From a virus (taxonomy: Duplodnaviria; Heunggongvirae; Uroviricota; Caudoviricetes): DNA of 64,000 nt. Shown piece after piece: positions 26,878-46,323 of the stretch (the stretch's first letter is position 1; each line of letters opens with the position of its first letter). The notes beneath the pieces are model-generated. The model worked only from the letters and a program-made list of their open reading frames with translations. It searched no databases and was not told the DNA's origin. Made by a program: the position numbers and the translations under genes. The DNA is taken from the IMG/VR virus record IMGVR_UViG_3300045007_000064, positions 60,236 through 124,235 of that record, one strand, 5' to 3'.

Positions 26878-28581
26878 TCAGAACTCGCCGCGAGCGAAGG
26901 CCGACACGAGGGCCGGAGCCGCCGAGTCGAATCCTGCGATGTCCAGGCTGTTCTTGTCGTTCGGGTCGATCAGCGTGTTCGGTGTCGCCTCCGTGGAGAG
27001 GAAGATCACCTTGGCGTCGATTCCCGTCTCCCGTCGATACTTCTCCAGGGCCTCGAAGGGCTGGATGTCTCCGGCCCAGGTCTCGTTGTCCGTGAGGATA
27101 AGGAAGACCTCGGGGCGCAGACCCTTCTCCAGGGCGTACATGATCGGCACGGCGATGTCAGTACCGCCCATCGGCAGACGGCGAACGTCGTTGATCACGT
27201 CATCGAGACGCCGGTTGGGCGAAACGATGCGGTCGAGGTCCGTGACCGCCTGGCTGTAGTGATCCTTCTCCTTGGCCTCGGGGACCTGGTTCCGACGACC
27301 GTAGCCGTAGCGGTACCCGCCGCGTCCGCCAGCGTAGCTGGTGAAGCCGACGATGTGAGTCTCCGGCTCGGTTGCAGCCGTCACGAGGGCGATTGCAGCC
27401 GTGGCCTCACGGGGAGTCAGTACAGGGCGATCCTTGCCGTAGCCGTAGCCGTAGAAGCCGTCCATGGAACCGGACACGTCCAGGCCGATCAGGTACTTCT
27501 TGCCCGCGGGCACAACGTTCTTGAACGCCAGGTAGAAGGCCTTGTCCAGGGCGTCGATGACCTCGCGGCTCGGCGTCCAGACGGTGGAACCCTTCTGGGA
27601 CTTGCCCGCCGCGTAGGTCTTCAGCGCGGTCAGCACGGCGATGGGGTGGATACGAGCGCGCTCGATTTCCTCCTTGCTCGTGAGACGCTTGACGACCTCG
27701 CCCAGACGAGAGCCATCCTTCAGCTTCTCGAAGAAGCCGAGGTTGGTCAGTCGCGGGAGCTGGCGCAGCAGCGCACCGAGCGGCAGGTTGCCGTCCAGAA
27801 GCGCGTCCCACGTCTCACGCTTGTTCAGCGCCTCGGTGGGCAGCATCTCCCAGGTCAGGCCGTACTCACGAATGAGTGCCGGAACATCGGCATCGGCAGC
27901 CTGCGCAAGCAGGAAGCCCTTGACCAGCTCCGGAGCCTTGGAGGCGTCATCGTGCAGGAACCACTCACCCAGGCCCTGCCACGCGGCATCCTGAGTCTTC
28001 GGGTGGGTCGTGCGGAAGATGTCACGGTGCGTCCAGCCCTCACGCTGACGGTACTTGACGATCTGGTAGGCAGCCTTGTCGGCGTCCTTACCCACGTACC
28101 AGTCTCCGACAGCGGTCTTCAGAGCGCGGCCCCAGCCACGGAACTGAAGCGCGAAGTTGACGAACTGAATCAGCGTGGTGCCCGTACGAGCAACCGCGTT
28201 CAGCTTGGACAGCGCGTACCGGCGTGCCTCAACCGATCCTGTGGACGCGGCGATGGCAAGCGCGAACAGTCCGGCGTCCTGCTTGGGAGCGCGACCCTGG
28301 GTCGAGTACTCCACGATGAGGTCCACGAGCTGGCGTGAACCCTCGTCGGTGGAGGCAACGCGCTGGACAGCCTGCGCGTTCTCCAGAGCGAGCTTGGCAC
28401 CGGGCGTGTAGAAGTTGCTCTCAGCGCCGAGGATCAGGAACCGCTTGACGCGCTCGATGTCCTCCAGCTTGAAGGTGTACCCTCCGGCAGCGTTCTTGAT
28501 CTGCTCCGGGCGTGCCTTCTGGCTCTGCGGGGTTGCCGTCATGCCCTTGCGGGTGACAACCGTCTTCAGGGATGATCCCAT
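26878..28581 (-). CDS. rsr: Ro60-related protein Rsr (TROVE domain plus vWA/MIDAS domain)
   Basis: The TROVE-like N-terminal region and the C-terminal vWA MIDAS motif GLDVSGSM match the layout of bacterial Rsr. Start taken at MGSSLKTVV. Confidence 0.75.
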   Translation of the reverse strand: MGSSLKTVVTRKGMTATPQSQKARPEQIKNAAGGYTFKLEDIERVKRFLILGAESNFYTPGAKLALENAQAVQRVASTDEGSRQLVDLIVEYSTQGRAPKQDAGLFALAIAASTGSVEARRYALSKLNAVARTGTTLIQFVNFALQFRGWGRALKTAVGDWYVGKDADKAAYQIVKYRQREGWTHRDIFRTTHPKTQDAAWQGLGEWFLHDDASKAPELVKGFLLAQAADADVPALIREYGLTWEMLPTEALNKRETWDALLDGNLPLGALLRQLPRLTNLGFFEKLKDGSRLGEVVKRLTSKEEIERARIHPIAVLTALKTYAAGKSQKGSTVWTPSREVIDALDKAFYLAFKNVVPAGKKYLIGLDVSGSMDGFYGYGYGKDRPVLTPREATAAIALVTAATEPETHIVGFTSYAGGRGGYRYGYGRRNQVPEAKEKDHYSQAVTDLDRIVSPNRRLDDVINDVRRLPMGGTDIAVPIMYALEKGLRPEVFLILTDNETWAGDIQPFEALEKYRRETGIDAKVIFLSTEATPNTLIDPNDKNSLDIAGFDSAAPALVSAFARGEF

Positions 28582-28614
28582 GATGTATGTCCTTTCTTCG
28601 GCTCGTCCATAGAC

Positions 28615-28650
28615 GAACATTGCCCCTAACCTATCACGAAGGCAGGGGCA
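28615..28650 (-). promoter_or_regulatory. proximal promoter of rsr
   Basis: Minus-strand TTGACA, a 17-nt spacer, then TAGGTT. The leader continues AAUGUUCG...GAGCCGAAG...AAAGGAC before the ATG. Confidence 0.5.
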
Positions 28651-28734
28651 TGTCAAGTGTTAAAGCTGAACATGTTGTTGCGCATGGGGTTCGTTCAAAG
28701 AGATAACCCATACACTTCGGCTCGGCTTCGTGAT

Positions 28735-28775
28735 GATCTTAGGGTACCACACATCTGCGCTATGTGCAAACGAGA
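28735..28775 (-). promoter_or_regulatory. distal promoter of rsr; copy A of the repeated promoter-and-leader module
   Basis: Minus-strand TTGCAC, a 17-nt spacer, then TACCCT, followed by the leader motif CGAAGCCGAGCCGAAG...GGGTTATC. Confidence 0.45.
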
Positions 28776-30868: not shown

Positions 30869-30902
30869 AAAAAGCCCCGATCAGCAATGACCGGGGCTTT
30901 TC
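30869..30902. terminator. bidirectional rho-independent terminator
   Basis: AAAAGCCCCG-loop-CGGGGCTTTT. Confidence 0.6.
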
Positions 30903-30992
30903 TAGAGGATCGTGAACATGTTGTGAAGATCGGTGTTTGAGCTAGGTTCCGGACCAGCGCACGAGTCGAACGTGCTTTCGCCTGTGTTTGAG

Positions 30993-31025
30993 ACAGATAA
31001 CCGATACCTCTTCGGCTCACGAAGT
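30993..31025 (-). repeat. copy B of the leader motif
   Basis: Plus strand reads GATAACCGATACCTCTTCGGCTCACGAAG; the reverse complement is GAGCCGAAGAGGUAUCGGUUAUC. Confidence 0.5.
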
Positions 31026-31085
31026 AAATCGCGAAGATGGTGTGGGAGTCGGAGAGCAGCCGTAGCTGCGATTGCGACCTATTCG

Positions 31086-31120
31086 TAAGATAACCGACTG
31101 TCCCTTCGCCTCGCGAAGTC
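31086..31120 (-). repeat. copy C of the leader motif
   Basis: Plus strand reads GATAACCGACTGTCCCTTCGCCTCGCGAAG. Confidence 0.45.
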
Positions 31121-31192
31121 TATGTGTAGTTTTCAAAGTAGTGGAGAACGAACATGGGGTGCAAGTGGGGATTGGATTCATTTACAGTGAAG

Positions 31193-31258
31193 GATAACCC
31201 ACGAGCTTCGGCTCGCTCTCGATAAATCTATAGTACCACAGCTAGAAGCTGTGTGCAA
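31193..31258 (-). promoter_or_regulatory. promoter D plus leader (third copy of the module)
   Basis: Minus-strand TTGCAC at 31253-31258, a 17-nt spacer, TACTAT at 31230-31235, then the leader GAGCGAGCCGAAGCUCGUGGGUUAUCC. Confidence 0.5.
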
Positions 31259-33368: not shown

Positions 33369-33579
33369 AGACAACATACAGGGCGAACATGGGGTGCCAA
33401 CGGAGATTCCATTCTTTCATGGTGTCATACGGGCCTTTCCCCGTCAGGTCATTCACTCTGACCCGAAGGCCATTCACCGGAGTGACACGTCCCAGATTAC
33501 CCTCTGGGAGGTTACTGCAAAGTTACGTGGACCTACGTCCACGGTTTGTGGTGGTTACATTACCTATTAGTGTGATAAC

Positions 33580-33647
33580 CGTATAGCTTCGGCTCGCCCT
33601 GTTGAGTTGTTGGTATCTATCGTAGCACACTTTCTCGGAGTGTGCAA
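33580..33647 (-). promoter_or_regulatory. promoter E plus leader, driving the first tRNA array
   Basis: Minus-strand TTGCAC at 33642-33647, a 17-nt spacer, TACGAT at 33619-33624, then the leader GAGCCGAAGCUAUACGGUUAUCAC. Confidence 0.5.
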
Positions 33648-35769: not shown

Positions 35770-35809
35770 TCTGCCCCGAAGGGCTATTCAGTTGTTCTAG
35801 TTTAGCACA

Positions 35810-36526
35810 TCACCACCAGGACTGCCCAGCCTTGCGGCGCGGGGTGATGTTCTCACGGTCGAAGGAATCCTCCCAGAACTCCTCTCCCGAGTTGAACTGC
35901 TTGGCGACTTCCTTCAGCGTGTCGCGGGCGATTGCACGCTTAGCGGCGTTGTATCCCTGAGGGGAGCAGCAGGAGCAGCGGTACTTGTAGACGTTGCGGT
36001 CTGCGCCGTACCAGTCTGCTTCCATGTAGCAGGGGTTGGCGTTGCTCCAACGGCTCACCATGAGCGGCTTCTCATCGATGGTGCAGTGATCGGGCACGGT
36101 GTACGCGAGGTAGCGCTCCTGCTTCGGGCGGCGGTAGGTGCCACCCTCCACGAGGGCGCTGTCCGGGTAACCGTGAGCGCGGAGCCACATGGCCTCGGAG
36201 CGGACCTTCGCGTAGTCGCGGGAGCGTGCCACGGAGTAGTCGCGGTTCCAACGCCAGTAGCGAATCTCCTCACCGGATTCCGAGCGCTTGGGGATCGAGA
36301 GTCCCTTGTCGGTGACCCAGGCCCACGAGTACATGGTTTCCGGCTTGGCGAGGAGGTCTCCCACGGTGTGGAAGTACGGAACCTCTTCGAGAACGGTCTT
36401 GCCGTCCTCATCCTTTACATCACGGGTGTACCAGACCTCTTCGCCCAGGCGAGAGTGGTCGTGGTGCTCCACACCGTGATCGTTGACCTTCACCCAGTAG
36501 GGTCGGGTCTTGTCAGTGCGAGACAT
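35810..36526 (-). CDS. hypothetical protein
   Basis: Long ORF rich in Trp, Tyr, Arg and His. Confidence 0.55.
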   Translation of the reverse strand: MSRTDKTRPYWVKVNDHGVEHHDHSRLGEEVWYTRDVKDEDGKTVLEEVPYFHTVGDLLAKPETMYSWAWVTDKGLSIPKRSESGEEIRYWRWNRDYSVARSRDYAKVRSEAMWLRAHGYPDSALVEGGTYRRPKQERYLAYTVPDHCTIDEKPLMVSRWSNANPCYMEADWYGADRNVYKYRCSCCSPQGYNAAKRAIARDTLKEVAKQFNSGEEFWEDSFDRENITPRRKAGQSWW

Positions 36527-36737
36527 TGTGTTCCTATCCGGAACACAGGTGCTAGGCCTTTCCTAGCTCTGGTCCTGTGTTCCTAACACCTGAACAGCGT
36601 TGGGCTGCTCATAGTGACTAGGAACGCGGTGTTGTCGAATTCGTTGCTCATGGGTCCAGTGTAGCACACCTTCCGGGATAACGCAAACGGAGCTTGATCC
36701 TATTCGGGTTAGGATCAAGCTCCGTTGATCTTACAGG

Positions 36738-37964
36738 TCAGCCCTTGACGCAGAGGATCGTCTGAAGGTGCGCGACCTTCTCGACCAGGTTGCTCTGAGC
36801 CTCGACCACCGCGTGTAGGTCCTTGTAGGCGTGAGAGATTTCGTCAATCACACCCGCGTCCTTGCGCGACTCGATGCCCTTCATGGTCTCAGCCACGTCC
36901 GCCACCGTGAAGCGGCGCTTGGCCTCACCACGGCTCATCTTCCGACCGGCACCGTGAGATGCGGAGGTCAGAGACGCCTCGTTACCGAGACCACGGACGA
37001 TGTACGAGCCGGTTGCCATCGATCCGGGGATCAACGCCAGCTCGCCCTTCTTCGCGGAGATTGCGCCCTTACGGGTCACGATCATGTCCACCGGCTTGCC
37101 ATCCACGAGGTGAGTCTCCTCCGCCACGTAGTTGTGGTGGCAGTTGATTTCGTCCTCGAAGCGCACCTTGGAGATGACGCGAGCCAGCTCACGCTTCACG
37201 AGGGACATCATCACCGTACGGCTGGTCGCCGCGTAGTTCTGCGCCCACATGAGGTCGTGCCGGTACTCCAGCATCTCCGGGGTGTCCTTCAGGAAGACCG
37301 CCAGCTCCTTGATCGGAAGGTCCTGGTTGTGATCCAGGGTCTTCGCGATGGAGATGTGGCGCTCTGCCAGCTCCTTGCCGATGTTCCGCGAACCGGAATG
37401 CAGCGTGATCCAGATGTTGTCATCCTCGTCCGTGCACAGTTCGATGAAGTGGTTACCTCCACCGAGGGTACCGAGCTGCTTACCGGCACGCTCCTCCAAC
37501 TTGTCCGCACCCGGGGCGCGGAGAGAGTCGAAGCCGTTCTTCAGCTTGGTGACCTCGGAGTTCAGGCCGTTACCGCCGATGTCTCGGAGGTCCTTCGAGG
37601 ACAGCGCCTCACCGTGGGAGTTGAAGCCGACCGGCACCGCGCGCTCGATGGCGCTACGGAGCTTGTGGAGGATGCCGTCAACGTCCTCACGAGTGAGGTT
37701 CGTCTTCACGGCGTTCACACCACAGCCGATGTCCACACCCACAGCGGACGGACAGATCGCGCTCGTGGAGCCGATCACCGTACCGATGGTCGCGCCAGCG
37801 CCCAGGTGAACGTCGGGCATCACGCGCAGCTCGTCAACCCACGGCAGCGCGCCGACGTTGCGAATCTGCTGAACCGCCTGCGGTTCGATTTCCCACTCGT
37901 TCGCCCACATGAGTGTGCGAGTCTTTGCACCCGGCAATTCAACCGGGAAGTTGTTGTCAGTCAT
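36738..37964 (-). CDS. rtcB: RtcB-family RNA 3'-phosphate ligase
   Basis: VMPDVHLGAGATIG, part of the metal-binding histidine signature, in a 408-aa protein. Confidence 0.9.
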   Translation of the reverse strand: MTDNNFPVELPGAKTRTLMWANEWEIEPQAVQQIRNVGALPWVDELRVMPDVHLGAGATIGTVIGSTSAICPSAVGVDIGCGVNAVKTNLTREDVDGILHKLRSAIERAVPVGFNSHGEALSSKDLRDIGGNGLNSEVTKLKNGFDSLRAPGADKLEERAGKQLGTLGGGNHFIELCTDEDDNIWITLHSGSRNIGKELAERHISIAKTLDHNQDLPIKELAVFLKDTPEMLEYRHDLMWAQNYAATSRTVMMSLVKRELARVISKVRFEDEINCHHNYVAEETHLVDGKPVDMIVTRKGAISAKKGELALIPGSMATGSYIVRGLGNEASLTSASHGAGRKMSRGEAKRRFTVADVAETMKGIESRKDAGVIDEISHAYKDLHAVVEAQSNLVEKVAHLQTILCVKG

Positions 37965-38254
37965 TTCGTGTCCTCGTAGTGGAAGAAGATTTCGGTGTCG
38001 GGTCGAAGGTAAATCTTGTACCCGTTTTGGTTGATCAGAATCGTCCCGTTCTGGTGAACGTAGATCGACTCAATGGTGTAGACATGCGGCTTGGTGATCC
38101 AGGCCTTAGCGGTATCATCCCAGTGTCGGGAAGGCTTAGCCTTCCCCCGGCGACTACCGTAGACGATGGACTCTACCGTACGCCCTAGGTCGCTGATCCG
38201 TAGTTCGGATGCTGGAACTGGAATCTTCGAGACGGTCATGCGTTGTACGTCCAC
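37961..38254 (-). CDS. hypothetical protein
   Basis: ATGA coupling to the rtcB start. Confidence 0.45.
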   Translation of the reverse strand: MDVQRMTVSKIPVPASELRISDLGRTVESIVYGSRRGKAKPSRHWDDTAKAWITKPHVYTIESIYVHQNGTILINQNGYKIYLRPDTEIFFHYEDTK

Positions 38255-38697
38255 AGCTCGATGTCTGCTCGATACCGCAGGGCAACTTCGGTGAGGACGA
38301 CCTCGACCATACGTTGGTCCAGACCGCCGATACCGCTGCCGATCCGAGGCAGGGCCAGAGTCTCGATGCCCACCTCATCACACTTCTGGAGGGCCGCAGC
38401 CACACCGCCGATGAGCAGGTCGTAGGAGGCGTTCGCCCCGGGAAGCTCCTGCGAGGCGATGTTCAGAACGAGCGCAGGCTGTCCCCACGGGGTCTTCAGG
38501 CTCCAGGAGAACACGCCTCCCGGCTCCAGGGTGCGGTTGCTGCACGCCTCCCGGTAGGCCTCGAACATCTCAGGGAACCGCTTGCTGAACTGCGCAGCGA
38601 TCCCCGCGCCCATAACGCCCACGGTGTTGACGCCGTGGCCGATGGCTCGCGAAGTCGTGGTGAAGATGTCGCCGTAGCGGTGGATAAGCTTTGTCAT
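38236..38697 (-). CDS. macro-domain protein (ADP-ribose or ADP-ribose-1''-phosphate processing)
   Basis: GDIF...GVNTVGVMGAGIAAQF and LPRIGSGIGG are macro-domain signatures. Confidence 0.7.
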   Translation of the reverse strand: MTKLIHRYGDIFTTTSRAIGHGVNTVGVMGAGIAAQFSKRFPEMFEAYREACSNRTLEPGGVFSWSLKTPWGQPALVLNIASQELPGANASYDLLIGGVAAALQKCDEVGIETLALPRIGSGIGGLDQRMVEVVLTEVALRYRADIELWTYNA

Positions 38698-38736
38698 GGT
38701 CTCAGCCTAACAGGTGTCGCCTGCTGTGTCAAGGCG

Positions 38737-39012
38737 TCAGTACGCCGTGTTGTCCTCGTGACCGCAGGAACCCTTGTGATTGACGGGCTTCTTGCATGGT
38801 TTCCATGTCCAGTCACTCGCATCCCATGCGTCCACGTCCCGGTAGGCCTGACCGCACTCATAGCTGTCGCTGTGGGTGTGGTAGAACCCGGCTCGACTGT
38901 TCGGGAGCTTGCCCAGCTCGGGTCCCGTCAGCTTCTTGATTCCTTGCTGCACTTCCGATAGCTCGTGGAGTAGTCTCTCCTCTTCGCGCTGAAGATCGCT
39001 GAGGGCGCTCAT
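38737..39012 (-). CDS. hypothetical cysteine/histidine-containing protein
   Basis: Start taken at MSALSDL. Confidence 0.4.
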   Translation of the reverse strand: MSALSDLQREEERLLHELSEVQQGIKKLTGPELGKLPNSRAGFYHTHSDSYECGQAYRDVDAWDASDWTWKPCKKPVNHKGSCGHEDNTAY

Positions 39013-39386
39013 TCGCTGTCTCCCTTGCTCAGGTGGTCGTAGATGACGCTGATCTTGACCCACTCGGGGGCCTCGGCGTTCGCGGCGGCGAGCATCTGCT
39101 TGCGCGCGGGAGGGTTGGACGTGTGGATGGTCAGCTCCTCAGGCCAGACCTCGTGCTCGATCATCCAGTTCAGCACCTTCATGCCGGTGTCGTCACCGCC
39201 GAGGTCGTGATCCAGGCTGACCTCCTCGATCCCGCCACCAAGAGGGCGTCCACGCTTGTCGTTGTTTCGACGCCACGTCTCCAGCCAGTCGATGGCCTCA
39301 GCGCTTGTCCGCGCGTGAACGTGCCATGGAATGCTATTGGAGTCCCACGGCATGGGACGCTCGTCGTCTACCCAAATCTTCATCAC
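39009..39386 (-). CDS. hypothetical protein, WVDDERP paralogue 1
   Basis: N-terminus MMKIWVDDERPMP...VSLDHDLG. Confidence 0.5.
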   Translation of the reverse strand: MMKIWVDDERPMPWDSNSIPWHVHARTSAEAIDWLETWRRNNDKRGRPLGGGIEEVSLDHDLGGDDTGMKVLNWMIEHEVWPEELTIHTSNPPARKQMLAAANAEAPEWVKISVIYDHLSKGDSE

Positions 39387-39694
39387 TTACCGTCCTGGTT
39401 GTCGTCGTCTACGAGGATCAGACCCTCCGGCCCTGCTTCCTTGGCGTAGGAGAGAATCTGGTAGCGACCGGTGCCACCGCCCGAGTGGGAGTGAAGTTCA
39501 CGAGGCCAGATGCCACGGCTTTCCATCCACTGGAGAACGTCGAAGCCGGAGTCCCAGCCGATCAGCACGTAGTCCAGCGAGACCACATCGTAGTCATTCT
39601 CCTGGAGCAGGCTGCGCGCATCGTCGGCGGTCTTGGCTACGTCCCAGTTCTCGTCCGGAGCGGGGCGCTCATCGTCTACCCAGAGTTTCTTCAT
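39383..39694 (-). CDS. hypothetical protein, WVDDERP paralogue 2
   Basis: N-terminus MKKLWVDDERPAP...VVSLDYVL; tandem duplicate of the neighbouring gene. Confidence 0.5.
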   Translation of the reverse strand: MKKLWVDDERPAPDENWDVAKTADDARSLLQENDYDVVSLDYVLIGWDSGFDVLQWMESRGIWPRELHSHSGGGTGRYQILSYAKEAGPEGLILVDDDNQDGK

Positions 39695-39744
39695 ACTGCC
39701 AGGGTACACGAGAAAGGCCCCGCTGTCAAGCGAGGCCTTTCCGG

Positions 39745-40818
39745 TCAGCGGTCGTGCTTCAGGAGGTACCGCTGGGAGATTGCCTTCCACGAGGCCCGAG
39801 CACCGTTCGGGAACGTTGCTACCTCGGTGTTCCGCCAGACGACACCCTCGACAGGCCGCTGAGGGTTGATCAGGCTCTTCAGGTTCTCGACCTGAGCCAG
39901 AGCCTCGTCCTGGTCCTTCGGGTAGGGCAGGTCGTGGATCGGCACGGCGATGTCGAGCGCCCACTGTGGCCAGGAGGCACGAGGAAGCTCCTCGCGGTCA
40001 ACCTGGATCGTGAAGAGTCGGAACTGGACTTGCTTGACCTGGAGAGGGTTGCCCTGGATTCCAGGACCAAAAATCTCCCCCTGGAGAGCGATTTCAGCCT
40101 CCACCAGGTAATCCTGAGCGGGGTACCAGTTGGTCATCTTCTCGTGGAGGTCCAGCTCGCGAGCCAGCTTCCACATGGAGTTGTGGCTGGTGTCCTCGAT
40201 GTCCCAGTTGCGCGAGGCCACGCCGTTCTCGTTGTTGGCGTAGAAGACGGTCATTGACGAGCCGTCAATCTTCTCGGTGGCGACCCAGGCATCCGGAGTC
40301 GGCTGAGAGCCGTCGAAGAGCCAGGAGAGGTTCTGCACGCGCTCCTCGTCGGTCTTGCGGAAGATGGACGGGAAGGCACCCTTGGCGCTTCCTGCAAGCT
40401 CGGCGGGGATGGGCGGGTCCCACTTCTCCAGTCCGGGAATGGCGGACGTGATATCCATACCGAGCAGAGCAATGCCCTGAGCCACGGCGAAAGCTTCATC
40501 CTCGAACTGAGCGAAGGGAAGCACGAGGCCCTGGCTGTAGACGCCACGGAGCTTCGCAGTCTTCAGGACGTGGCCCTCCACGCCCTCCTGGTTCTTCCGC
40601 GCTCCACGAGGCGCGAGGAAGGTGAATCGGGGGTCGTCCAGCGGCAGGAACGAGTCGATTTCGAAGTAGACCACAAGGTCTCCAACCTCGAACTCTCCGA
40701 TGCGCACGACGACATCCCAGCCGCGCACACGCGCGACCTCGATGCTGTCGGCTCCCTCGATGGGACGCAGCTCTGTGATTTCCTCGACCGTTGCGAGGGC
40801 GCGTTCTTCTGTAGTCAT
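39745..40818 (-). CDS. ATP-dependent RNA ligase (nucleotidyltransferase KxDG family)
   Basis: Motif I EKIDGSS with the covalent-adenylation lysine, an N-terminal OB-like region, and later ligase motifs. Confidence 0.65.
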   Translation of the reverse strand: MTTEERALATVEEITELRPIEGADSIEVARVRGWDVVVRIGEFEVGDLVVYFEIDSFLPLDDPRFTFLAPRGARKNQEGVEGHVLKTAKLRGVYSQGLVLPFAQFEDEAFAVAQGIALLGMDITSAIPGLEKWDPPIPAELAGSAKGAFPSIFRKTDEERVQNLSWLFDGSQPTPDAWVATEKIDGSSMTVFYANNENGVASRNWDIEDTSHNSMWKLARELDLHEKMTNWYPAQDYLVEAEIALQGEIFGPGIQGNPLQVKQVQFRLFTIQVDREELPRASWPQWALDIAVPIHDLPYPKDQDEALAQVENLKSLINPQRPVEGVVWRNTEVATFPNGARASWKAISQRYLLKHDR

Positions 40819-40872
40819 GAGTCCAGCGTATACGAAAAAAGCCTCGCTGTCAACGCCAGCGAGGCTATGTTC

Positions 40873-40946
40873 TTGGTGGGTCCTGCGGGGATCGAACCCG
40901 CGCTTGAAGGGTAAAAGCCAACAGTGCTCCCGCTACACCAAAGACC
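40873..40946 (-). tRNA. tRNA (anticodon not resolved), CCA encoded
   Basis: Good acceptor stem and T-arm GCGGG-TTCGATC-CCCGC; the anticodon stem is ambiguous. Confidence 0.45.
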
Positions 40947-40947
40947 C

Positions 40948-41019
40948 GCACTCCCACCTGAAATCGAATCAGGACTTCGAGGACCAAAATCTCGCGTGGC
41001 TACCGTTACACTATGGGAG
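40948..41019 (-). tRNA. tRNA-Gln (anticodon TTG)
   Basis: A1-U72 pair, T-arm CCTGA-TTCGATT-TCAGG, anticodon loop TTTTGGT. Confidence 0.5.
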
Positions 41020-41079
41020 TATGTGGAAGCTTTAAGGACTCGAACGTGCGCACGTTTGTCCCACGGTTTTCCAACCTCC

Positions 41080-41150
41080 GCTCCCCAGCCTGGATTCGAA
41101 CCAAGACGAGCAGATTCAGAGTCTGCCATGCTACCGTTACATCACCGGGG
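41080..41150 (-). tRNA. tRNA-Gln (anticodon CTG)
   Basis: U1-A72 pair, anticodon arm GCAGA-CTCTGAA-TCTGC, T-arm CTTGG-TTCGAAT-CCAGG. Confidence 0.7.
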
Positions 41151-41266
41151 AATACGCCTGCCGCATCTACACATACGCTTTGAGGCCGTGACCCAGGCCA
41201 GCAGGACTTCTGTGGAGGTCTCGACTTCGATTTCGCCCCGAAGGATACGCATATCGACTCCACATT

Positions 41267-41337
41267 GCTCCCCAGCCTGGTTACGATCCAAGTCTTCGAT
41301 GTTCAGAGCATCGCGTGCTGCCAGTACACTACCGGGG
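41267..41337 (-). tRNA. tRNA-Gln(CTG)-like paralogue with T-loop ATCGTAA
   Basis: Same acceptor as the preceding gene, anticodon arm CGATG-CTCTGAA-CATCG, A in place of T54. Confidence 0.4.
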
Positions 41338-41346
41338 AATAGATGG

Positions 41347-41466
41347 GCTACATGCCCACCAAGATTGCTGCTACGAGAATGATCAGTCCAAGACCGATGG
41401 TGGCGAGGGTGATCTTCACGTCTGAGGGCGACTTGAACTGGCCCTCTTCTTCTGCGTCGAATGTCA
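41347..41466 (-). CDS. small membrane protein (39 aa)
   Basis: Under 60 aa. AGGA ribosome-binding site, strong GC3 bias, one predicted transmembrane helix; lies between tRNA genes. Confidence 0.35.
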
Positions 41467-41483
41467 TGCTGACATCCTACCAC

Positions 41484-41558
41484 ATGGTGTCCCCGGAGGG
41501 GATCGAACCCTCGACCAAGGTCTTAGGAGGACCTGATTCTGCCACTGAACTACGGAGA
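41484..41558 (-). tRNA. tRNA-Arg (anticodon CCT), CCA encoded
   Basis: Anticodon arm AGGTC-CTCCTAA-GACCT and T-arm CGAGG-GTTCGATC-CCCTC. Confidence 0.75.
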
Positions 41559-41774
41559 CATATGCTGACCTGTAAGCCGGGTTCTGTCGTTGAAGACGCA
41601 CATCTACCTTCGCCACATACCCGCTCATCATCGGGGAATGACACCCTAGAACTGTTTGTGTTGCACCCACGGCCTCACCGCTGCTTCATTAGTCTGTGCT
41701 TAGTGGACGTACCACACGGCTATCATTCGGGTGCCCGGACTTTCCTCAGCTTGCGCCGCGTGCGTCCAGTCAGC

Positions 41775-41847
41775 GTGCCAACACCGGGATTCGAACCCGG
41801 AACCTTCAGCCTCGGAAGCTGCTGCTCTATCCATTGAGCTATGTCGG
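41775..41847 (-). tRNA. tRNA-Arg (anticodon CCG)
   Basis: Anticodon loop TTCCGAG and T-arm CCGGG-TTCGAAT-CCCGG. Confidence 0.6.
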
Positions 41848-41848
41848 C

Positions 41849-41923
41849 GTGGTCTCCCCGGCAAGAATCGAACTTGCATCGCCTGGTTCGTAGCCAGACA
41901 TCGTATCCATTGGAACACGAGGA
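41849..41923 (-). tRNA. tRNA-Arg (anticodon ACG), CCA encoded
   Basis: Anticodon arm TCTGG-CTACGAA-CCAGG. Confidence 0.7.
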
Positions 41924-41973
41924 GTTACCTGCGACTTAAACAGAGCACCGACTTTACGATGTTGCGCCGCATT

Positions 41974-42046
41974 GTACCCCAAGAGGGATTCGAACCCCCG
42001 ACCTCTGCATCCGTAGTGCAGCGCTCTATCCACTGAGCTATTGAGG
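41974..42046 (-). tRNA. tRNA-Arg (anticodon ACG), second copy
   Basis: Anticodon arm CTGCA-CTACGGA-TGCAG and T-arm GGGGG-TTCGAAT-CCCTC. Confidence 0.55.
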
Positions 42047-42047
42047 C

Positions 42048-42120
42048 GCATGGGTGGCAGGATTTGAACCCGCGACACGTCGGGTTGGAGCCGACTGCTC
42101 TGGCCTCTGAGCTACACCCA
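42048..42120 (-). tRNA. tRNA-Trp (anticodon CCA)
   Basis: A1-U72 and G73, anticodon arm GTCGG-CTCCAAC-CCGAC, T-loop TTCAAAT. Confidence 0.7.
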
Positions 42121-42564
42121 TATAGTGGTCGAAGAGCGTCTGAGATATTCAAGCGCTCTGAGAAGACCTGTTTCGTTGTCGCCTAGCATTCCGATCCCAG
42201 TGTTGCAGGGAGCGCAGAGTAGGCCTCGTACACACTTACCGCACGAGTGAGGCCCCGGGCAGCAACTGTGGTCATGGTCCACAACCTTAGCAGGTCTTGC
42301 CTGGCAAGACCAGCACATCCCGTTGAACATGGCAAGGAGTTCCTGCCATCGTTCGACCGAGATACCATGACGAGTATGTGAAGGACCATTCTTCTTGTGA
42401 ATGGCTTGCGCCTTGTCAATGTACTTCTGACGGTTGGCTTGGTAGTGCGACTTTCGATAGGCGCGGTGGCAATCCTTGCACTGGGCAGCGCGTCTGACGT
42501 TCTTCACTCGCCAGCTATAGTTCTCTTCTGGCTGAGTCACGCCACACTTGGTACACTTCTTCAT
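42112..42564 (-). CDS. HNH endonuclease
   Basis: VVDHDHS...CGKCVRGLLCAPCN. AT-rich. A TATAAT box lies 7 nt upstream of the ATG. Its 3' end overlaps the tRNA-Trp gene by a few nt. Confidence 0.7.
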   Translation of the reverse strand: MKKCTKCGVTQPEENYSWRVKNVRRAAQCKDCHRAYRKSHYQANRQKYIDKAQAIHKKNGPSHTRHGISVERWQELLAMFNGMCWSCQARPAKVVDHDHSCCPGPHSCGKCVRGLLCAPCNTGIGMLGDNETGLLRALEYLRRSSTTIWV

Positions 42565-42737
42565 ACTCACATTATAGCACTCCAAAATATTTCGTTTGGA
42601 GACCGCACCCCACCGACGAATCGAACGCCGCACGCAGAGGGTTGGAATCTCTACTGGTACCCAGACCGTGGGATATATGACGACCAACGCACTACAGTCC
42701 AGTTCGCGACCATTGCCGTAGGTGAATTGATCATCCG

Positions 42738-42809
42738 CTCCCCCGCCTGGATTCGAACCAGGGACCTTAGAGTTAACAGCTCTCTGCTCTGCCGCTGAGC
42801 TACAGGGGA
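42738..42809 (-). tRNA. tRNA-Asn (anticodon GTT)
   Basis: Anticodon loop CTGTTAA and T-arm CCTGG-TTCGAAT-CCAGG. Confidence 0.65.
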
Positions 42810-42877
42810 ATACGCTACACATTCGCTAATCAACATGCTTTCGCACCGTTAGCCTAAAAGGACAGTAGCCTTCCTCG

Positions 42878-42950
42878 CTCCCCCGCCTGGTGACGATCCA
42901 AGCTCACGCGGTTAACAGCCGCGGGTTTTACCAACATAAACTACAGGGGA
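42878..42950 (-). tRNA. tRNA-Asn(GTT)-like paralogue with T-loop ATCGTCA
   Basis: Anticodon arm CGCGG-CTGTTAA-CCGCG, A in place of T54. Confidence 0.4.
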
Positions 42951-43021
42951 ATATGGGGACCGTTCCTTTTACGGATTCGTTGGTTACCCCAGCACGGTCC
43001 TACACCGGGGGTTGTTACGTC

Positions 43022-43501
43022 TTAGAGCCAGTCTGCCTCTGGGTGGCTCCACCTGTAGGCTTCCTCGAAAGTCGGCTTGTAAGGCTGGAATGCCAGGGTC
43101 ATGCCGCTCTGTTCAAGCGACTTGTCACCCTTCTTGTTGTTGCAGGGCTGGCAAGCGGCAATCGAGTTCTCCCACGATGCGGGGTTACCCTTGGACTTGG
43201 GCTTGATGTGGTCCACCGTGGTAGCCTTGCCGCCACAGTAGGCACAGACGAAGCCGTCTCGCCTCAGGACGCCACGCTTAGAGAACGGGATGACGCCTGT
43301 GCGGTTGTACTTCCACTTGGCGAAGACGTACCGGACCAGCTCGACAGCCGTAGGCCGCTCGTAGGGGCCGAACATCTCACCAGCAATGCTCTTCAGAATA
43401 CGAGCCTTGCCCTGGTGGACCATCTTGATTGCGTGGGTCAGACTGACGCGGTTCAGCGCTTCCTTACCACCTAGGTTGTAAACGATAACTGTTGCGCTCA
43501 T
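43022..43501 (-). CDS. HNH endonuclease
   Basis: CAYCGG...TVDHIKP...CQPCNNKKG. Start taken at MSATVIV. Confidence 0.7.
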   Translation of the reverse strand: MSATVIVYNLGGKEALNRVSLTHAIKMVHQGKARILKSIAGEMFGPYERPTAVELVRYVFAKWKYNRTGVIPFSKRGVLRRDGFVCAYCGGKATTVDHIKPKSKGNPASWENSIAACQPCNNKKGDKSLEQSGMTLAFQPYKPTFEEAYRWSHPEADWL

Positions 43502-43574
43502 GAGTCTGACCTCCAATCACATTCTATCACAGCGTCATGAGTTTTAGGGGGCAGTAGGTTGCCAGCCCGTCAAT

Positions 43575-43871
43575 TTAGACGATCAGAGCCATTGCCTTAG
43601 CGAATGCCTCGGGGTCGTAACCTCCGGCGTAAGCGCCTGCCCAGAGAGAAGTTGCCTCCTCACGAGCCTGCTCTGCCGTCAGAGGACCGGTTAGGTCATC
43701 ATCCGAGTGGGATTCCCAAGGGCTGTAGCAGGAGCACCCGCTGTCCGTAGACAACCAGTATCCGTCCTCAGTCTTCCAGATTCCCACAAGGTCGTAGGAG
43801 TAGTAAGGCTCAGCCAAATCTACTTCCACGATCATTTCGAACTTGTCACTGATCTTGCTTCCGTACATCAT
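43575..43871 (-). CDS. hypothetical protein
   Basis: ORF. Confidence 0.45.
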   Translation of the reverse strand: MMYGSKISDKFEMIVEVDLAEPYYSYDLVGIWKTEDGYWLSTDSGCSCYSPWESHSDDDLTGPLTAEQAREEATSLWAGAYAGGYDPEAFAKAMALIV

Positions 43872-44042
43872 GATTCTCCATTCGTTGTTATAGCGAAACC
43901 ATTCTTGGAGAACCTATGCACTTGTAGCGTAGACCGCCAGGGAATCGAACCCTGCACAACTTCCGTGTAAAGGATGTCTGCGTACCCAGCGCGCAGTCCG
44001 TATGAGTAGTACTCTAGCAGACACTCGGATGAATGTCAACTG

Positions 44043-44114
44043 TGTTCGCGAGAGGAATTGAACCTCCGACATCCGACGAGTCAGGTCGGCACTCTACCAC
44101 TGAGTTACGCGAAC
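44043..44114 (-). tRNA. tRNA-Val (anticodon GAC), tentative
   Basis: Perfect acceptor stem GTTCGCG / CGCGAAC and anticodon arm CCGAC-CTGACTC-GTCGG; position 37 is unusual. Confidence 0.45.
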
Positions 44115-44259
44115 GTGCGGGAACCTAAGAGTTAGCGACCTCTGACCATGACTCCCGAATACGTCAGCGGCTCTTGTGTTTTGGGCGACTGGTTACGGCC
44201 CGCAGGGTTTCTCGTGTGTTCCCATTTGTATACCGCCTCCAAACCCTTGTCGGCGGGAG

Positions 44260-44333
44260 TGCCGCGTCTGGGAATCGAACCCAGGACCTCTCCCGTACCA
44301 GGGGAGTGTTCTAAACCACTGAACTAACGCGGC
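44260..44333 (-). tRNA. tRNA-Thr (anticodon GGT)
   Basis: Anticodon arm CTCCC-CTGGTAC-GGGAG and T-arm CCTGG-GTTCGATT-CCCAG. Confidence 0.75.
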
Positions 44334-44420
44334 ATGGCATGAGACGGGCACCAACTCTCGCCCTTACTGAGGCTCACACACCCCAACGGATTTTGCTGTG
44401 CACAGCAGGCATTCCTACCT

Positions 44421-44494
44421 TGGTGCCGGAACTCAGAATCGAACTGAGGGCTGCTCGTTACGAAGGAGCTGCTTTACCACTAAGCGATACCGGC
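44421..44494 (-). tRNA. tRNA-Thr (anticodon CGT), CCA encoded
   Basis: Anticodon loop TTCGTAA; U6·U67 mismatch in the acceptor stem. Confidence 0.6.
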
Positions 44495-44575
44495 ATGCAG
44501 GGTTTTTCACTGACAGCCTCTACTGTCACTCGGATATTACCGAGACGCATTCCTAGGAAATGTCCCTTACGTTTG

Positions 44576-44648
44576 TGCCGGAGTTGGGAATCGAACCCAC
44601 GTTAATCCGCTTTACAAGAGCGGTGCAAAACCACTATGCATCACCGGC
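44576..44648 (-). tRNA. tRNA-Thr (anticodon TGT)
   Basis: Anticodon arm CCGCT-CTTGTAA-AGCGG; the same U6·U67 mismatch. Confidence 0.65.
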
Positions 44649-44656
44649 AAGAGTGC

Positions 44657-44766
44657 TGGAGGACTTGAACCTCTCGGACGCCGCATGGACCCTAGGCCTG
44701 TTTTACATGCGTTAGTGCGTGCCTGTTATTTTCTTCAGCCCGAATCATTACGGGTCTACAGCACCG
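44657..44766 (-). pseudogene. unresolved tRNA-like element of about 110 nt
   Basis: 7-bp acceptor stem (GGTGCTG / CAGCACT) and T-arm (TTCAAGT loop) with about 45 extra nt between the D region and the T-arm. Confidence 0.25.
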
Positions 44767-44840
44767 TGCGGAGAACGGGGATCGAACCCGCGACCTTCTC
44801 GTTGGCAACGAGACGCTCTGCCAGATTGAGCTACCTCCAC
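44767..44840 (-). tRNA. tRNA-Gly (anticodon GCC)
   Basis: Anticodon arm TCTCG-TTGCCAA-CGAGA and T-arm GCGGG-TTCGATC-CCCGT. Confidence 0.7.
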
Positions 44841-44962
44841 TTAGGTGCATGGGCATTACCCCCATGCTGGCCGACACCCCTGTAACGAAACTCAGTCGGA
44901 GAGACCCGGCACTGCGTTTTAGCCTCGTCAAGTGCGTTCGAGGGAGCCGTATGCATCCGGCT

Positions 44963-45036
44963 TGGAGCGACTAGCGGGAATCGAACCCGCGCGTACACCA
45001 TGGCAAGGTGTCAAGCTACCATTACATCATAGTCGC
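44963..45036 (-). tRNA. tRNA-Gly (anticodon GCC), second copy, CCA encoded
   Basis: Anticodon arm ACACC-TTGCCAT-GGTGT and T-arm CGCGG-GTTCGATT-CCCGC. Confidence 0.5.
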
Positions 45037-45142
45037 GTATGGACACGGCGTCCCCAGAGCGACTGCCCGAGGACAACAATAACGACTTCGCTATTCGCAT
45101 TCACATATCGTTACCGCTAAGCACCCGTATCCGGTTGCTCCG

Positions 45143-45213
45143 AGTGAGTGACGGGGATCGAACCCGCGACAACAGGGTGGAAGCCTGTCATGTTACCGCT
45201 ACACCACACTCAC
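45143..45213 (-). tRNA. tRNA-Gly (anticodon TCC)
   Basis: Anticodon arm ACAGG-CTTCCAC-CCTGT. Confidence 0.7.
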
Positions 45214-45362
45214 GTATCTGTACCATTCTAGCACAGAAGTGTTTAGGGCGCAACCATCGAAAGTTGCATCTGCCACGCGGGAAGTCATGACTTTCCCGGT
45301 TCCGCCTCGGGTAGTACTCCCCGATTTGGACAAGGCCGTGTTTCCATTGACACCAGCCCCCG

Positions 45363-45436
45363 TACCCCCACTCGGACTCGAACCGAGGACCCACCGCTTA
45401 AGAGGCGGTTGCTCTAACCAACTGAGCTATAGAGGC
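45363..45436 (-). tRNA. tRNA-Lys (anticodon CTT)
   Basis: Anticodon arm ACCGC-CTCTTAA-GCGGT and T-arm CTCGG-TTCGAGT-CCGAG. Confidence 0.7.
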
Positions 45437-45507
45437 AAATTGAGAAGGGACGTTTGTGCCACTCGTCCTGCCGTGATCATTCGGCCATGCCCTTCTCGGA
45501 CGCGACG

Positions 45508-45581
45508 TGGGTCCCACGGGATTCGAACCCGTATTCCGCTGGGTAAGAGCCAGGAGTAATAAGCCGTTATACCAGAGACCC
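45508..45581 (-). tRNA. tRNA-Lys (anticodon CTT), second copy, tentative
   Basis: Anticodon loop CTCTTAC and T-arm ACGGG-TTCGAAT-CCCGT. Confidence 0.45.
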
Positions 45582-46302: not shown

Positions 46303-46323
46303 AGTTGTGTTACTCCTAGTTAA

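What the first reader, a model, noticed from the sequence alone, without database searches (positions are those of the whole stretch)
30869..31258. An ORF-free locus of about 350 nt between a consensus promoter and a rho-independent terminator; candidate phage non-coding RNA, possibly a Y-RNA-like partner of Rsr
The minus strand has a near-consensus promoter (TTGCAC-17-TACTAT at 31230-31258) and a strong terminator at 30869-30902. No ORF in between exceeds 20 codons. The transcript would carry three copies of a conserved module (GAGCCGAAG stem-loop, 7-8 nt, then GGUUAUC), two short shared motifs (GCACCCCAUGUUCG and CAACAUGUUCA) and a 3'-proximal GCGCUGGUCCGG. That last segment resembles the conserved CUGGUCCGA of the Ro-binding helix in metazoan Y RNAs. 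The CCGAAG-N8-GUUAUC arrangement also recalls the 5' end of human Y1 RNA. The locus lies between the lysis cassette and the SPFH-protein gene, 2.3 kb upstream of rsr. The call is hypothesis-grade; no bacterial or phage Y RNA has been compared.
Basis: inference. Interest (0 to 1): 0.75.

Follow-up and report, generated by a model that had tools for sequence, protein, structure and literature searches.

The report
Three tandem phage Y RNAs
The gene-free stretch encodes three small Y RNAs in a row, the usual partners of the Ro/Rsr RNA-quality-control protein that this Microbacterium phage also encodes; the RNA type is known, but these copies are unannotated.

Summary
On the minus strand, a conserved promoter (31258-31230) and a strong terminator (30902-30869) frame about 355 nt. 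This stretch holds three separate modules, not one RNA: M1 31220-31144, M2 31118-31027, M3 31024-30908.

Each module has the same anatomy: a terminal helix with a bulged C, a G.U pair, GNCGAAG, a second helix, GGUUAUC, a variable loop, then CAU plus the return strand. GNCGAAG is the published Rsr-recognition motif of bacterial Y RNAs.

A covariance model built from 19 short modules scores the three at 72, 59 and 48 bits; M1 and M2 were in the seed, M3 was not. It finds two more modules in the window. It also finds 146 hits in 80 actinobacterial rsr loci, 145 on the rsr strand and nearly all just upstream of rsr. Covariation is strong.

Three details are wrong. Unconserved ORFs of 54 and 69 codons exist. 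GCGCUGGUCCGG is not the Ro site. GAGCCGAAG is not a conserved hairpin.

Rsr binding and expression are untested. Verdict: new members of a known kind (YrlB-like phage Y RNAs), missed by Rfam thresholds and by phage annotations.

The parts
31230..31258 (-). Promoter of the Y RNA unit: -35 TTGCAC (31258-31253), 17-nt spacer, extended -10 TGTGG-TACTAT (31240-31230). The likely transcription start is about A31223.
   Evidence: Sequence. The blocks are invariant in 5 phages (A5). TTGCAC-N12-TGTGNTA occurs 3 times in the window, each before a Y module, against 0.01 expected. The same rule holds in the relatives. The start site is inferred.
31144..31220 (-). Module M1 (77 nt), a minimal Y RNA: P1 GAGAGCGAGC/GUUCGUUCUC, bulged C, G.U pair, GAAG, P2 GCUCGUGGG/CCCACUUGC, UUAUC, 23-nt loop.
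   Evidence: R1 score 71.7 bits (M1 was in the seed). Minimum-free-energy fold gives the same structure, z = -3.44. Rfam RF01656 sbRNA 25.4 bits.
31027..31118 (-). Module M2 (92 nt): GGCGAAG variant. The pair next to the bulge is flipped from C-G to G-C. The loop carries a covarying GC hairpin (GCAGC-UACG-GCUGC).
   Evidence: R1 score 58.9 bits (M2 was in the seed). Fold z = -2.75. Orthologues listed.
30908..31024 (-). Module M3 (117 nt): the same core, with a loop holding a V hairpin, a T-arm mimic (30975-30959, GCACG-UUCGACU-CGUGC) and an AS hairpin. The D-arm is truncated.
   Evidence: R1 score 48.0 bits, E = 1e-10; M3 was not in the seed. Fold. T-stem covariation and an invariant GUUCGAYU loop in A4.
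30869..30902 (-). Intrinsic terminator: GAAAAGCCCCGGUCA-UUGC-UGAUCGGGGCUUUUU.
   Evidence: 15-bp hairpin in the fold of the whole transcript. Compensatory stem changes in relatives (A6).
33379..33647 (-). Fourth Y unit: promoter 33647-33619 and a long module 33601-33379 (223 nt, 170-nt multi-hairpin loop). It ends 10 nt before tRNA-Ile (33368-33292).
   Evidence: R1 score 41.1 bits, E = 3e-8. P1 pairs 10 of 10. Promoter. Fold z = -4.05. tRNA.
28662..28769 (-). Fifth Y unit: promoter 28769-28741 and a minimal module 28729-28662 (68 nt), between the endolysin terminator and the rsr promoter.
   Evidence: R1 score 58.9 bits (in the seed). Rfam sbRNA RF01656 30.1 bits. Promoter.
28590..28620 (-). 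rsr mRNA leader: AUGUUCGUC-UAUG-GACGAGC-C-GAAG followed by the Shine-Dalgarno sequence. It is a circularly permuted copy of the Y RNA Rsr-binding helix and a candidate autoregulatory operator.
   Evidence: Sequence. Conserved in 5 phages. The function is inferred.
26878..28581 (-). rsr (Ro60 orthologue). The likely start is ATG 28581, with its own promoter TTGACA-17-TAGGTT at 28656-28628.
   Evidence: Pfam TROVE 5.8e-43 and vWA_Ro60 1.3e-42. PDB 2NVO 5.9e-90 and 1YVP 2.2e-83.

Best explanation
The locus is a small transcription unit. A phage promoter drives a precursor of about 355 nt that holds three tandem Y RNAs (M1, M2, M3) and ends at an intrinsic terminator.

Each module folds on its own. 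Its 5' and 3' ends pair into a helix of about 8 bp that presents a bulged C, a G.U pair and the GAAG of the GNCGAAG motif. This is the platform that Ro60/Rsr rings recognise on Y RNAs. A second helix capped by GGUUAUC then carries a module-specific loop. M1 has a small loop, M2 has a GC hairpin, and M3 has a partial tRNA mimic with a T-arm.

Inferred mechanism:
- The precursor is cut into RNAs of about 77, 92 and 117 nt, as YrlA and YrlB are in M. smegmatis.
- Each RNA binds the phage Rsr encoded 2.3 kb downstream.
- The different loops gate the Rsr cavity or tether Rsr to different partners, such as host PNPase.
- Together with the phage RtcB ligase and its 43 tRNAs, this forms an RNA repair and decay module during infection.

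Shown here: sequence anatomy, covariation, family membership by model search, and linkage to rsr. Inferred: transcription, processing, Rsr binding and the downstream effect.
For: - Motif: CGAAG-N6-12-GGTTATC occurs 5 times in the window, all on the minus strand, against 0.02 expected. GNCGAAG equals the published Rsr motif.
- Structure: each module's minimum-free-energy fold gives P1, internal loop and P2 (z = -2.1 to -3.4). The whole transcript folds as three modules plus the terminator (z = -3.57).
- Covariation in A1: 87.7% of cells paired against 69.6% in shuffles, 13 of 18 pairs changed on both sides, 0 of 500 shuffles as high, slid partners 50% or less.
- Covariation in A2 (78 distinct sequences): 89.7% against 67.1%, and 361 against 117 double-change cells.
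- An independent swap test on the outer P1 pairs and the upper P2 pairs gave 0 of 10000 permutations as high.
- Model R1 scores M3, which was not in the seed, at 48 bits.
- R1 gives 85 hits across the window and 23 phage and viral-contig loci, including positions immediately upstream of Ro in mycobacteriophages Bonray and Farewell and Gordonia phage Sixama. In the loci fetched through the Ro gene, every hit lies on the Ro strand.
- R1 gives 146 hits in 80 actinobacterial rsr loci. Of these, 145 are on the rsr strand, almost all within about 650 nt upstream of rsr.
- One of these hits coincides with the Rfam YrlA hit in G. polyisoprenivorans (45.2 bits).
- A DNA-pattern search that ignored proteins recovered 12 viral loci with modules, and 7 of them carry Rsr next to the modules.
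- Synteny: in Cece the locus abuts Ro.
- The promoter and terminator are conserved.
- Precedents: M. smegmatis YrlA and YrlB come from one precursor. Thermus phage phiLo Ro60 binds two phage Yrl RNAs and host PNPase.
- The window also encodes Rsr and RtcB.
Against: - There are no expression or binding data.
- No Rfam family reaches its gathering score in the locus, and Rfam YrlA gives nothing even at E up to 10.
- None of the three modules has the complete tRNA-like domain that Chen 2014 found in at least one Y RNA per species.
- M1 and M2 were in the model seed, so their scores are partly by construction.
- Alignment A2 is fitted to the model, and many sequences are related. Both inflate the shuffle controls.
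- Processing into three RNAs is assumed by analogy only.
Confidence: 0.78

Rival explanations
1. One unprocessed RNA of about 355 nt acts as a multivalent scaffold. Its three Rsr-binding platforms hold up to three Rsr rings, and their partners, together.
For: The three modules share one promoter and one terminator. M2 and M3 are only 2 nt apart. The phiLo Ro60-Yrl complexes form higher-order and dimeric assemblies.
Against: M. smegmatis YrlA and YrlB are processed from one precursor. The number and order of modules in the locus vary between relatives, 3 to 5 per locus. This fits independent units better. Other modules in the window stand alone.
Confidence: 0.13
2. The modules are decayed tRNA-derived relics, or processing signals of the phage tRNA region, with no link to Rsr.
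For: The locus lies in a region with 43 tRNA genes. M3 has a T-arm mimic. Big4 annotators called part of a homologous module a tRNA-Ser. The module at 33601-33379 runs straight into tRNA-Ile.
Against: The conserved, covarying part is the terminal bulged helix with GNCGAAG, not a cloverleaf. No tRNA model hits the locus at E up to 10. The same core sits upstream of rsr in 80 bacterial genomes that lack tRNA arrays there.
Confidence: 0.04
3. The stretch is a cis-acting leader or attenuator that controls the downstream 51-aa ORF and endolysin through the terminator at 30902-30869.
For: The locus lies directly upstream of the lysis genes and ends in a terminator. A conserved promoter-like block (GCCGAnAGTATnATA) follows the terminator.
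Against: In Cece the endolysin is elsewhere and the locus sits next to Ro. Identical modules occur at two other sites in the window and in bacteria, unrelated to lysis genes.
Confidence: 0.03
4. The locus encodes small proteins: the 54-aa ATG ORF 31181-31017 or the 69-aa GTG ORF 31020-30811.
For: These ORFs exist. A3Wally annotators called a 42-aa CDS in the homologous stretch.
Against: tblastn matches in relatives are broken across different frames or absent. ORF positions differ in every relative. Pfam finds nothing for the flanking small ORFs. The substitution pattern follows RNA pairing.
Confidence: 0.02

Closest known systems
Bacterial and phage Y RNAs of the YrlA/YrlB class (Chen et al. 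2014, RNA 20:1715; Rfam RF02553 YrlA)
   Same: Encoded near rsr and in the same orientation. GNCGAA(N0-1)G lies near the 5' end, inside a stem formed by the two RNA ends. Several Y RNAs occur in tandem and can share one precursor. The loops are module-specific, and some mimic tRNA arms. The model built here hits the same place as Rfam YrlA in G. polyisoprenivorans.
   Different: None of the three has the full T, AS and D tRNA-like domain that defines YrlA, and M3 keeps only T and AS. They resemble the shorter YrlB type. Both helix strands and GGUUAUC are conserved, whereas the literature read here states that only the 5' strand is conserved across bacteria. The unit is separated from rsr by the endolysin gene and has its own promoter and terminator.
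Thermus phage phiLo Yrl1 and Yrl2 with phage Ro60 (NAR 2025, PMC12135203)
   Same: A phage encodes its own Ro60 together with more than one Y-like RNA carrying the CGAA motif. In that system binding to phage Ro60 and to host PNPase was shown experimentally.
   Different: phiLo has two RNAs directly upstream of Ro60. This phage has five modules in three transcription units spread over 5 kb.
Nematode stem-bulge RNAs (Rfam RF01656 ceN72-3_ceN74-2) and vertebrate Y RNAs (RF00019)
   Same: Bulged-C lower stem with CCG-AG on the 5' strand. G-GGUUAUC caps the upper stem. The 3' block is CACCAAC-(A/U)UG. RF01656 is the best non-tRNA Rfam hit for M1 (25.4 bits), for the module next to rsr (30.1 bits) and for Gordonia YrlA (27.5 bits). 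RF00019 gives 26.5 bits on a jumbo-phage module. UUAUC is a known conserved sbRNA and vertebrate Y motif.
   Different: All scores are below the gathering threshold of 38 bits. The stem sequence is GAGC/GUUC rather than GGUC/GACC. Transcription is from a bacterial-type promoter to an intrinsic terminator, not by Pol III. The La-binding role of the 3' U tail does not apply.
D. radiodurans Yrn1/Rsr/PNPase (RYPER)
   Same: It serves as the working model. The Y RNA stem binds Rsr and the loop tethers an exoribonuclease. Both helix strands are recognisable. The window Rsr matches D. radiodurans Rsr (2NVO) at 5.9e-90.
   Different: No evidence was obtained here for PNPase binding, and the loops share no evident similarity.

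Membership tests
Bacterial/phage Y RNA (Rsr-associated, Yrl class) | Encoded close to a Ro60/Rsr gene and on the same strand | tested here: met
   M3 ends 2.3 kb upstream of the rsr start, on the same strand. The homologous locus abuts Ro in Cece. 145 of 146 model hits in bacterial loci are on the rsr strand, nearly all upstream of rsr.
Bacterial/phage Y RNA (Rsr-associated, Yrl class) | GNCGAA(N0-1)G motif near the 5' end | tested here: met
   GCCGAAG in M1 and M3, GGCGAAG in M2. The motif definition comes from Chen 2014.
Bacterial/phage Y RNA (Rsr-associated, Yrl class) | Long stem formed by pairing of the 5' and 3' ends that contains the Rsr site | tested here: met
   P1 and P2 are recovered by single-sequence folding and supported by covariation.
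Bacterial/phage Y RNA (Rsr-associated, Yrl class) | Bound and stabilised by Rsr in vivo | not testable with these tools
   This needs Rsr immunoprecipitation or EMSA.
YrlA subfamily (Rfam RF02553) | tRNA-like effector domain with T-arm, acceptor-like stem and D-arm, scoring at or above 69 bits | tested here: not met
   No RF02553 hit in the locus at E up to 10. M3 has a T-arm and an AS hairpin but a truncated D-arm. Relatives do carry full T, AS and D modules, which score 30-45 bits.
Metazoan Y RNA / nematode sbRNA (RF00019, RF01656) | Match to the family covariance model at gathering score (38 bits) | tested here: not met
   M1 scores 25.4 bits and the 28729-28663 module 30.1 bits against RF01656. 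This is a resemblance, not membership.
Metazoan Y RNA / nematode sbRNA (RF00019, RF01656) | UUAUC motif at the top of the upper stem | tested here: met
   GGUUAUC is present in all five window modules, in 61 of 78 distinct sequences of the window-plus-phage hit set, and as UUAUC or UUACC in 84 of 91 bacterial hits (the hits are biased by the model). The motif in animals is described.
tRNA | Cloverleaf recognised by tRNA models | tested here: not met
   Neither ARAGORN nor Rfam tRNA hits 30869-31258.
Independent bacterial transcription unit | Promoter and intrinsic terminator conserved in relatives | tested here: met
   A5 and A6, promoter motif statistics, hairpin. Transcription itself was not tested.

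The most novel reading that the evidence does not exclude
Actinobacterial and phage Y RNAs may keep the same three sequence blocks as animal Y and sbRNAs: the 5' xxGxC-C-GRAG strand, GGUUAUC, and the 3' CACCAAC(A/U)UG strand. If so, bacterial and animal Y RNAs would be true homologues sharing one ancestral Ro60-binding platform. Reviews currently state the opposite. UUAUC would then be a Ro60/Rsr-related determinant rather than a DNA-replication-specific one.

The phage may also run a closed Rsr circuit. Five Y RNAs are made from promoters sharing one motif. The rsr mRNA begins with a circularly permuted copy of the Y RNA helix placed against its Shine-Dalgarno sequence. Free Rsr would therefore repress its own translation, and the Y RNAs would relieve that repression by titrating Rsr.
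Probability: 0.3. Interest if true: 0.7.

Novelty: new member of a known kind. Interest (0 to 1): 0.5.

Why it matters
Phage-encoded Ro60/Rsr is common: 355 phage records in the collection searched carry it. Its RNA partners are almost never annotated. In the records read here the modules were called hypothetical proteins or a tRNA, or were left blank.

This locus shows that one phage can carry five Y RNA modules with different effector loops. They sit next to RtcB and a large tRNA set, which points to a virus-run RNA repair and decay system.

The core model built here recovers Y RNAs upstream of rsr in 80 actinobacterial genomes. The Rfam YrlA model stayed below threshold wherever it was run on related loci, so the new model is a practical annotation tool.

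The shared GGUUAUC and 3'-strand blocks, and the Y-helix mimic in the rsr leader, give direct and cheap experiments on how Rsr recognises RNA and controls itself.

Tried and rejected
- Rfam at gathering thresholds found only tRNAs in the window and in five relatives.
- Rfam YrlA and Y_RNA gave nothing in the locus at E up to 10.
- The E. coli-style promoter and terminator scanner missed both signals.
It lies in the T-arm/AS hairpin of M3 and is not conserved.
- I rejected the 'GAGCCGAAG stem-loop'. A CGAGC-CGAA-GCUCG hairpin can form only in M1 and its closest orthologues.
- I rejected coding ORFs because the frames are not conserved.
- The viral contigs pattern scan was dominated by an unrelated terminator-like element, GGGAGCCGAAGCTCCC...GGTTATC, in prophage-sized contigs mostly of 20-50 kb. 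These hits were discarded because they lack a 3' partner.
- My first pairing scripts mis-assigned 3' partners in tandem arrays. Requiring the (C/U)(A/U)U anchor fixed this.
- MAFFT shifted the P2 3' strand by one column in a few rows of A1, which lowers the counts.
- One plus-strand regex hit at 14017 and weak model hits (under 14 bits) elsewhere in the window were treated as chance.
- The Chen 2014 supplements and two Wolin-lab reviews are not held, so the published alignments could not be compared.

Full report
**What the window is.** The locus has 70-81% DNA identity to 186-195 kb Microbacterium phages (Zooman, Big4, A3Wally, Cece and one masked record). All genes here run on the minus strand, in this order:
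- RtcB ligase, 37964-36738
- tRNA genes; the window holds 43 in all
- a Band-7/SPFH protein, 32470-31505
- a 59-aa ORF, 31441-31262
- the gene-free stretch
- a 51-aa ORF
- endolysin, 30655-28835
- a TROVE plus vWA Ro60/Rsr orthologue. It matches D. radiodurans Rsr (2NVO) at 5.9e-90 and Xenopus Ro60 (1YVP) at 2.2e-83.

**Checking the observation.**
- An E. coli-consensus scanner found neither signal. Comparison with relatives is more informative. The -35 block and TGTGnTAnnnT are invariant in five phages while the flanks diverge (A5).
- The terminator stem shows compensatory changes in relatives (A6).
- TTGCAC-N12-TGTGNTA occurs exactly three times in 64 kb against 0.01 expected.
- CGAAG-N6-12-GGTTATC occurs five times, all on the minus strand, against 0.02 expected.
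- The claim that no ORF exceeds 20 codons is wrong. ORFs of 54 aa (ATG) and 69 aa (GTG) overlap the locus. In relatives their matches break across frames or vanish, and no ORF position is shared. The stretch is therefore non-coding.

**Anatomy.** The locus holds three tandem modules, not one RNA with repeats: M1 31220-31144, M2 31118-31027 and M3 31024-30908. All three share one plan:
- Helix P1 is formed by the module's own 5' and 3' ends. About 8 bp are well paired.
- A bulged C follows, then a G.U pair and the rest of GAAG in an internal loop.
- Helix P2 ends in GG, followed by UUAUC and a variable loop.
- The return strand of P2 leads into an A/C-rich strand ending in CAU, then the return strand of P1.

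Folding each module alone recovers the plan (z = -2.1 to -3.4). Folding the whole 358-nt transcript gives three independent modules plus a 15-bp terminator hairpin (z = -3.57).

The loop of M3 contains three elements:
- a small hairpin
- a T-arm mimic (GCACG-UUCGACU-CGUGC, 30975-30959), whose stem covaries and whose GUUCGAYU loop is invariant in orthologues
- a further hairpin

**Is the structure real?** I collected 63 modules (51 distinct) from the window, five Microbacterium phages, three other Ro-encoding phages and metagenomic viral contigs.
- The three P1 positions just outside the conserved GAGC/GYUC core each show all four Watson-Crick pair types, with at most 4 unpaired cases in 51.
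- Swapping 3' strands between modules never reached the observed complementarity (0 of 10000).
- On a MAFFT alignment of 19 short modules, 87.7% of cells pair against 69.6% in shuffles. Thirteen of 18 pairs change on both sides. Sliding the partner by 1-3 columns drops pairing to 50% or below.
- On a model-fitted alignment of 78 distinct sequences the figures are 89.7% against 67.1%, and 361 against 117 double-change cells.
- Caveats: the second alignment leans towards the model, and relatedness among sequences inflates shuffle controls.

**What family is it?**
- GNCGAAG is the motif GNCGAA(N0-1)G that Chen et al. (2014) found near the 5' end of bacterial Y RNAs and linked to Rsr recognition.
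- Covariance model R1, built from the 19 short modules, scores M1 at 71.7 bits, M2 at 58.9 bits and the module next to rsr at 58.9 bits. All three were in the seed.
- R1 scores M3, which was not in the seed, at 48.0 bits (E = 1e-10). It scores a 223-nt module at 33601-33379 at 41.1 bits.
- In other phages R1 hits lie immediately upstream of Ro: mycobacteriophage Bonray (three hits), Farewell (two) and Gordonia phage Sixama.
- In 80 actinobacterial rsr loci fetched by protein similarity, R1 gives 146 hits. Of these, 145 are on the rsr strand, almost all within about 650 nt upstream of rsr and typically two to five in tandem.
- One of these hits, in Gordonia polyisoprenivorans, comes from a species whose YrlA appears in Chen's published alignment. 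It coincides with a full-length Rfam YrlA match of 45.2 bits and has the same architecture with a complete T, AS and D domain.
- A DNA-pattern scan of viral contigs that ignored proteins recovered 12 loci with genuine modules. Seven of them carry an Rsr gene beside the modules, and the other five stored stretches showed no Rsr match, four of them under 4 kb.
- In Cece the endolysin gene is elsewhere and the homologous locus abuts Ro.
- These results place M1-M3 in the Rsr-associated Y RNA family.

**Which subtype?** None of the three reaches any Rfam gathering score. Rfam YrlA does not hit the locus even at E up to 10, because no module here has the full tRNA-like domain. Relatives carry additional full YrlA-type modules in the same locus, giving Zooman, Big4 and A3Wally five modules each. 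M1 and M2 are minimal Y RNAs. M3, with a T-arm only, parallels M. smegmatis YrlB, which 'contains a possible T-arm'. I therefore file them as YrlB-like members, not as YrlA.

**How it most likely works.**
- Shown: a conserved promoter and terminator, three covarying Rsr-type platforms with different loops, and linkage to rsr and rtcB.
- Inferred from named precedents: the precursor is processed into separate RNAs, as M. smegmatis YrlA and YrlB are. Each RNA binds the phage Rsr ring through the bulged helix, as in Xenopus and D. radiodurans.
- Also inferred: the loops gate the Rsr cavity or tether Rsr to effectors such as host PNPase. This was shown for D. radiodurans RYPER and for Thermus phage phiLo Ro60 with its two phage Yrl RNAs.
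- With RtcB and 43 tRNAs alongside, a role in RNA repair or decay during infection is plausible. This echoes the Salmonella RtcB/RtcA RNA-repair operon that is regulated by damaged tRNAs. It remains speculative.

**Beyond the finding.**
1. The window has two more Y units with the same promoter motif. One is at 33647-33379 and runs straight into tRNA-Ile. The other is at 28769-28662, just before the rsr promoter.
2. The rsr mRNA probably starts near 28621 and begins with AUGUUCGUC-UAUG-GACGAGC-C-GAAG, directly followed by the Shine-Dalgarno sequence. This is the Y RNA helix with its strands joined at the opposite end. It is conserved in all five phages. It is a candidate Rsr autoregulation site.
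3. The best non-tRNA Rfam match of M1 (25.4 bits), of the 28729-28663 module (30.1 bits) and of Gordonia YrlA (27.5 bits) is the nematode stem-bulge RNA family RF01656. sbRNAs are described as homologues of vertebrate Y RNAs. A jumbo-phage module scores 26.5 bits on vertebrate Y_RNA. The alignments show shared blocks at CCG-AG, GGGUUAUC and CACCAAC-UG.
4. UUAUC is a known conserved sbRNA and vertebrate Y motif. The literature I could read says that bacterial Y RNAs are 'not homologous' with vertebrate Y RNAs and that only the 5' strand is conserved across bacteria. The resemblance is below threshold and may reflect convergence on Ro60 binding. It deserves a proper profile-to-profile test.

**Verdict.** The locus adds new, unannotated members to a known kind. 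Interest is moderate, because a specialist expects Y RNAs near a phage rsr. Four features were not expected:
- the number of modules
- their dedicated promoters
- the helix mimic in the rsr leader
- the animal-like sequence blocks

Noticed in passing
window 28590-28620 (minus); L001-L004 upstream of Ro: The rsr 5' leader begins with a circularly permuted copy of the Y RNA Rsr-binding helix (AUGUUCGUC-UAUG-GACGAGC-C-GAAG), directly abutting the Shine-Dalgarno sequence. It is conserved in five Microbacterium phages, with U.G to C-G and U-A to U.G changes. It is a candidate Rsr autoregulatory operator.
   Followed up: partly
window 33647-33623, 31258-31234, 28769-28745 (minus): The promoter motif TTGCAC-N12-TGTGNTA occurs only three times in the window, each 10-20 nt upstream of a Y RNA module (0.01 expected). 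The extended -10 TGTGNTANNNT is shared with 10 other minus-strand sites, all at 35809-53332 in the tRNA-rich part of the window; several have TTGACA-like -35 boxes.
   Followed up: partly
window 33379-33601 (minus): A 223-nt Y module carries a 170-nt multi-hairpin loop and ends 10 nt before tRNA-Ile, with no terminator between them. It would be co-transcribed with the tRNAs, and its 3' end could be set by tRNA processing. Orthologues occur in Zooman and Big4 (267 nt) and A3Wally (203 nt).
   Followed up: partly
L126 3597-3946 (Bonray); L002 5481-5548 (Big4); L003 5223-5351 (A3Wally): Deposited annotations overlap Y RNA modules. Bonray gp233 and gp234 'hypothetical proteins' cover three model hits just upstream of Ro. 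The Big4 'tRNA-Ser(cga)' is the tRNA-like core of a YrlA-type module. A3Wally gp192 lies inside the module array. These are likely mis-annotations.
   Followed up: partly
L010, L014, L060, L081, L084, L091, L035 (IMG/VR contigs; most of 297-436 kb, L060 59 kb): Metagenomic phage contigs, most of jumbo size (297-436 kb), carry one to five such modules, in L010 and L014 interleaved with tRNA genes. Their 3' strand reads CUUG(C/U)UC, closer to the animal CUUGAC than the actinophage CAUGUUC. Several have full T, AS and D tRNA-like domains.
   Followed up: partly
about 70 IMG/VR loci among L007-L124, e.g. L007 6805-6828: A very common unrelated element, AAAAGGGAGCCGAAGCTCCCTCTGGTTATCACGC, matched the search pattern by chance. 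It is a GGGAGC-CGAA-GCTCCC hairpin found in prophage-sized contigs, mostly of 20-50 kb. Its nature was not examined.
   Followed up: no
window 36738-37964 (minus): An RtcB RNA ligase (Pfam 1.6e-116) lies 5.5 kb upstream of the locus, on the same strand as rsr, the Y RNAs and the tRNA arrays. This mirrors the pairing of RtcB with Rsr and Y RNAs in Salmonella.
   Followed up: partly
window 50080-50153 (minus): ARAGORN calls a tRNA-His with anticodon AUG, next to a standard tRNA-His(GUG) at 52417-52491. Several other ARAGORN calls (for example 41267-41338 and 42877-42950) are absent from the Rfam tRNA list.
   Followed up: no
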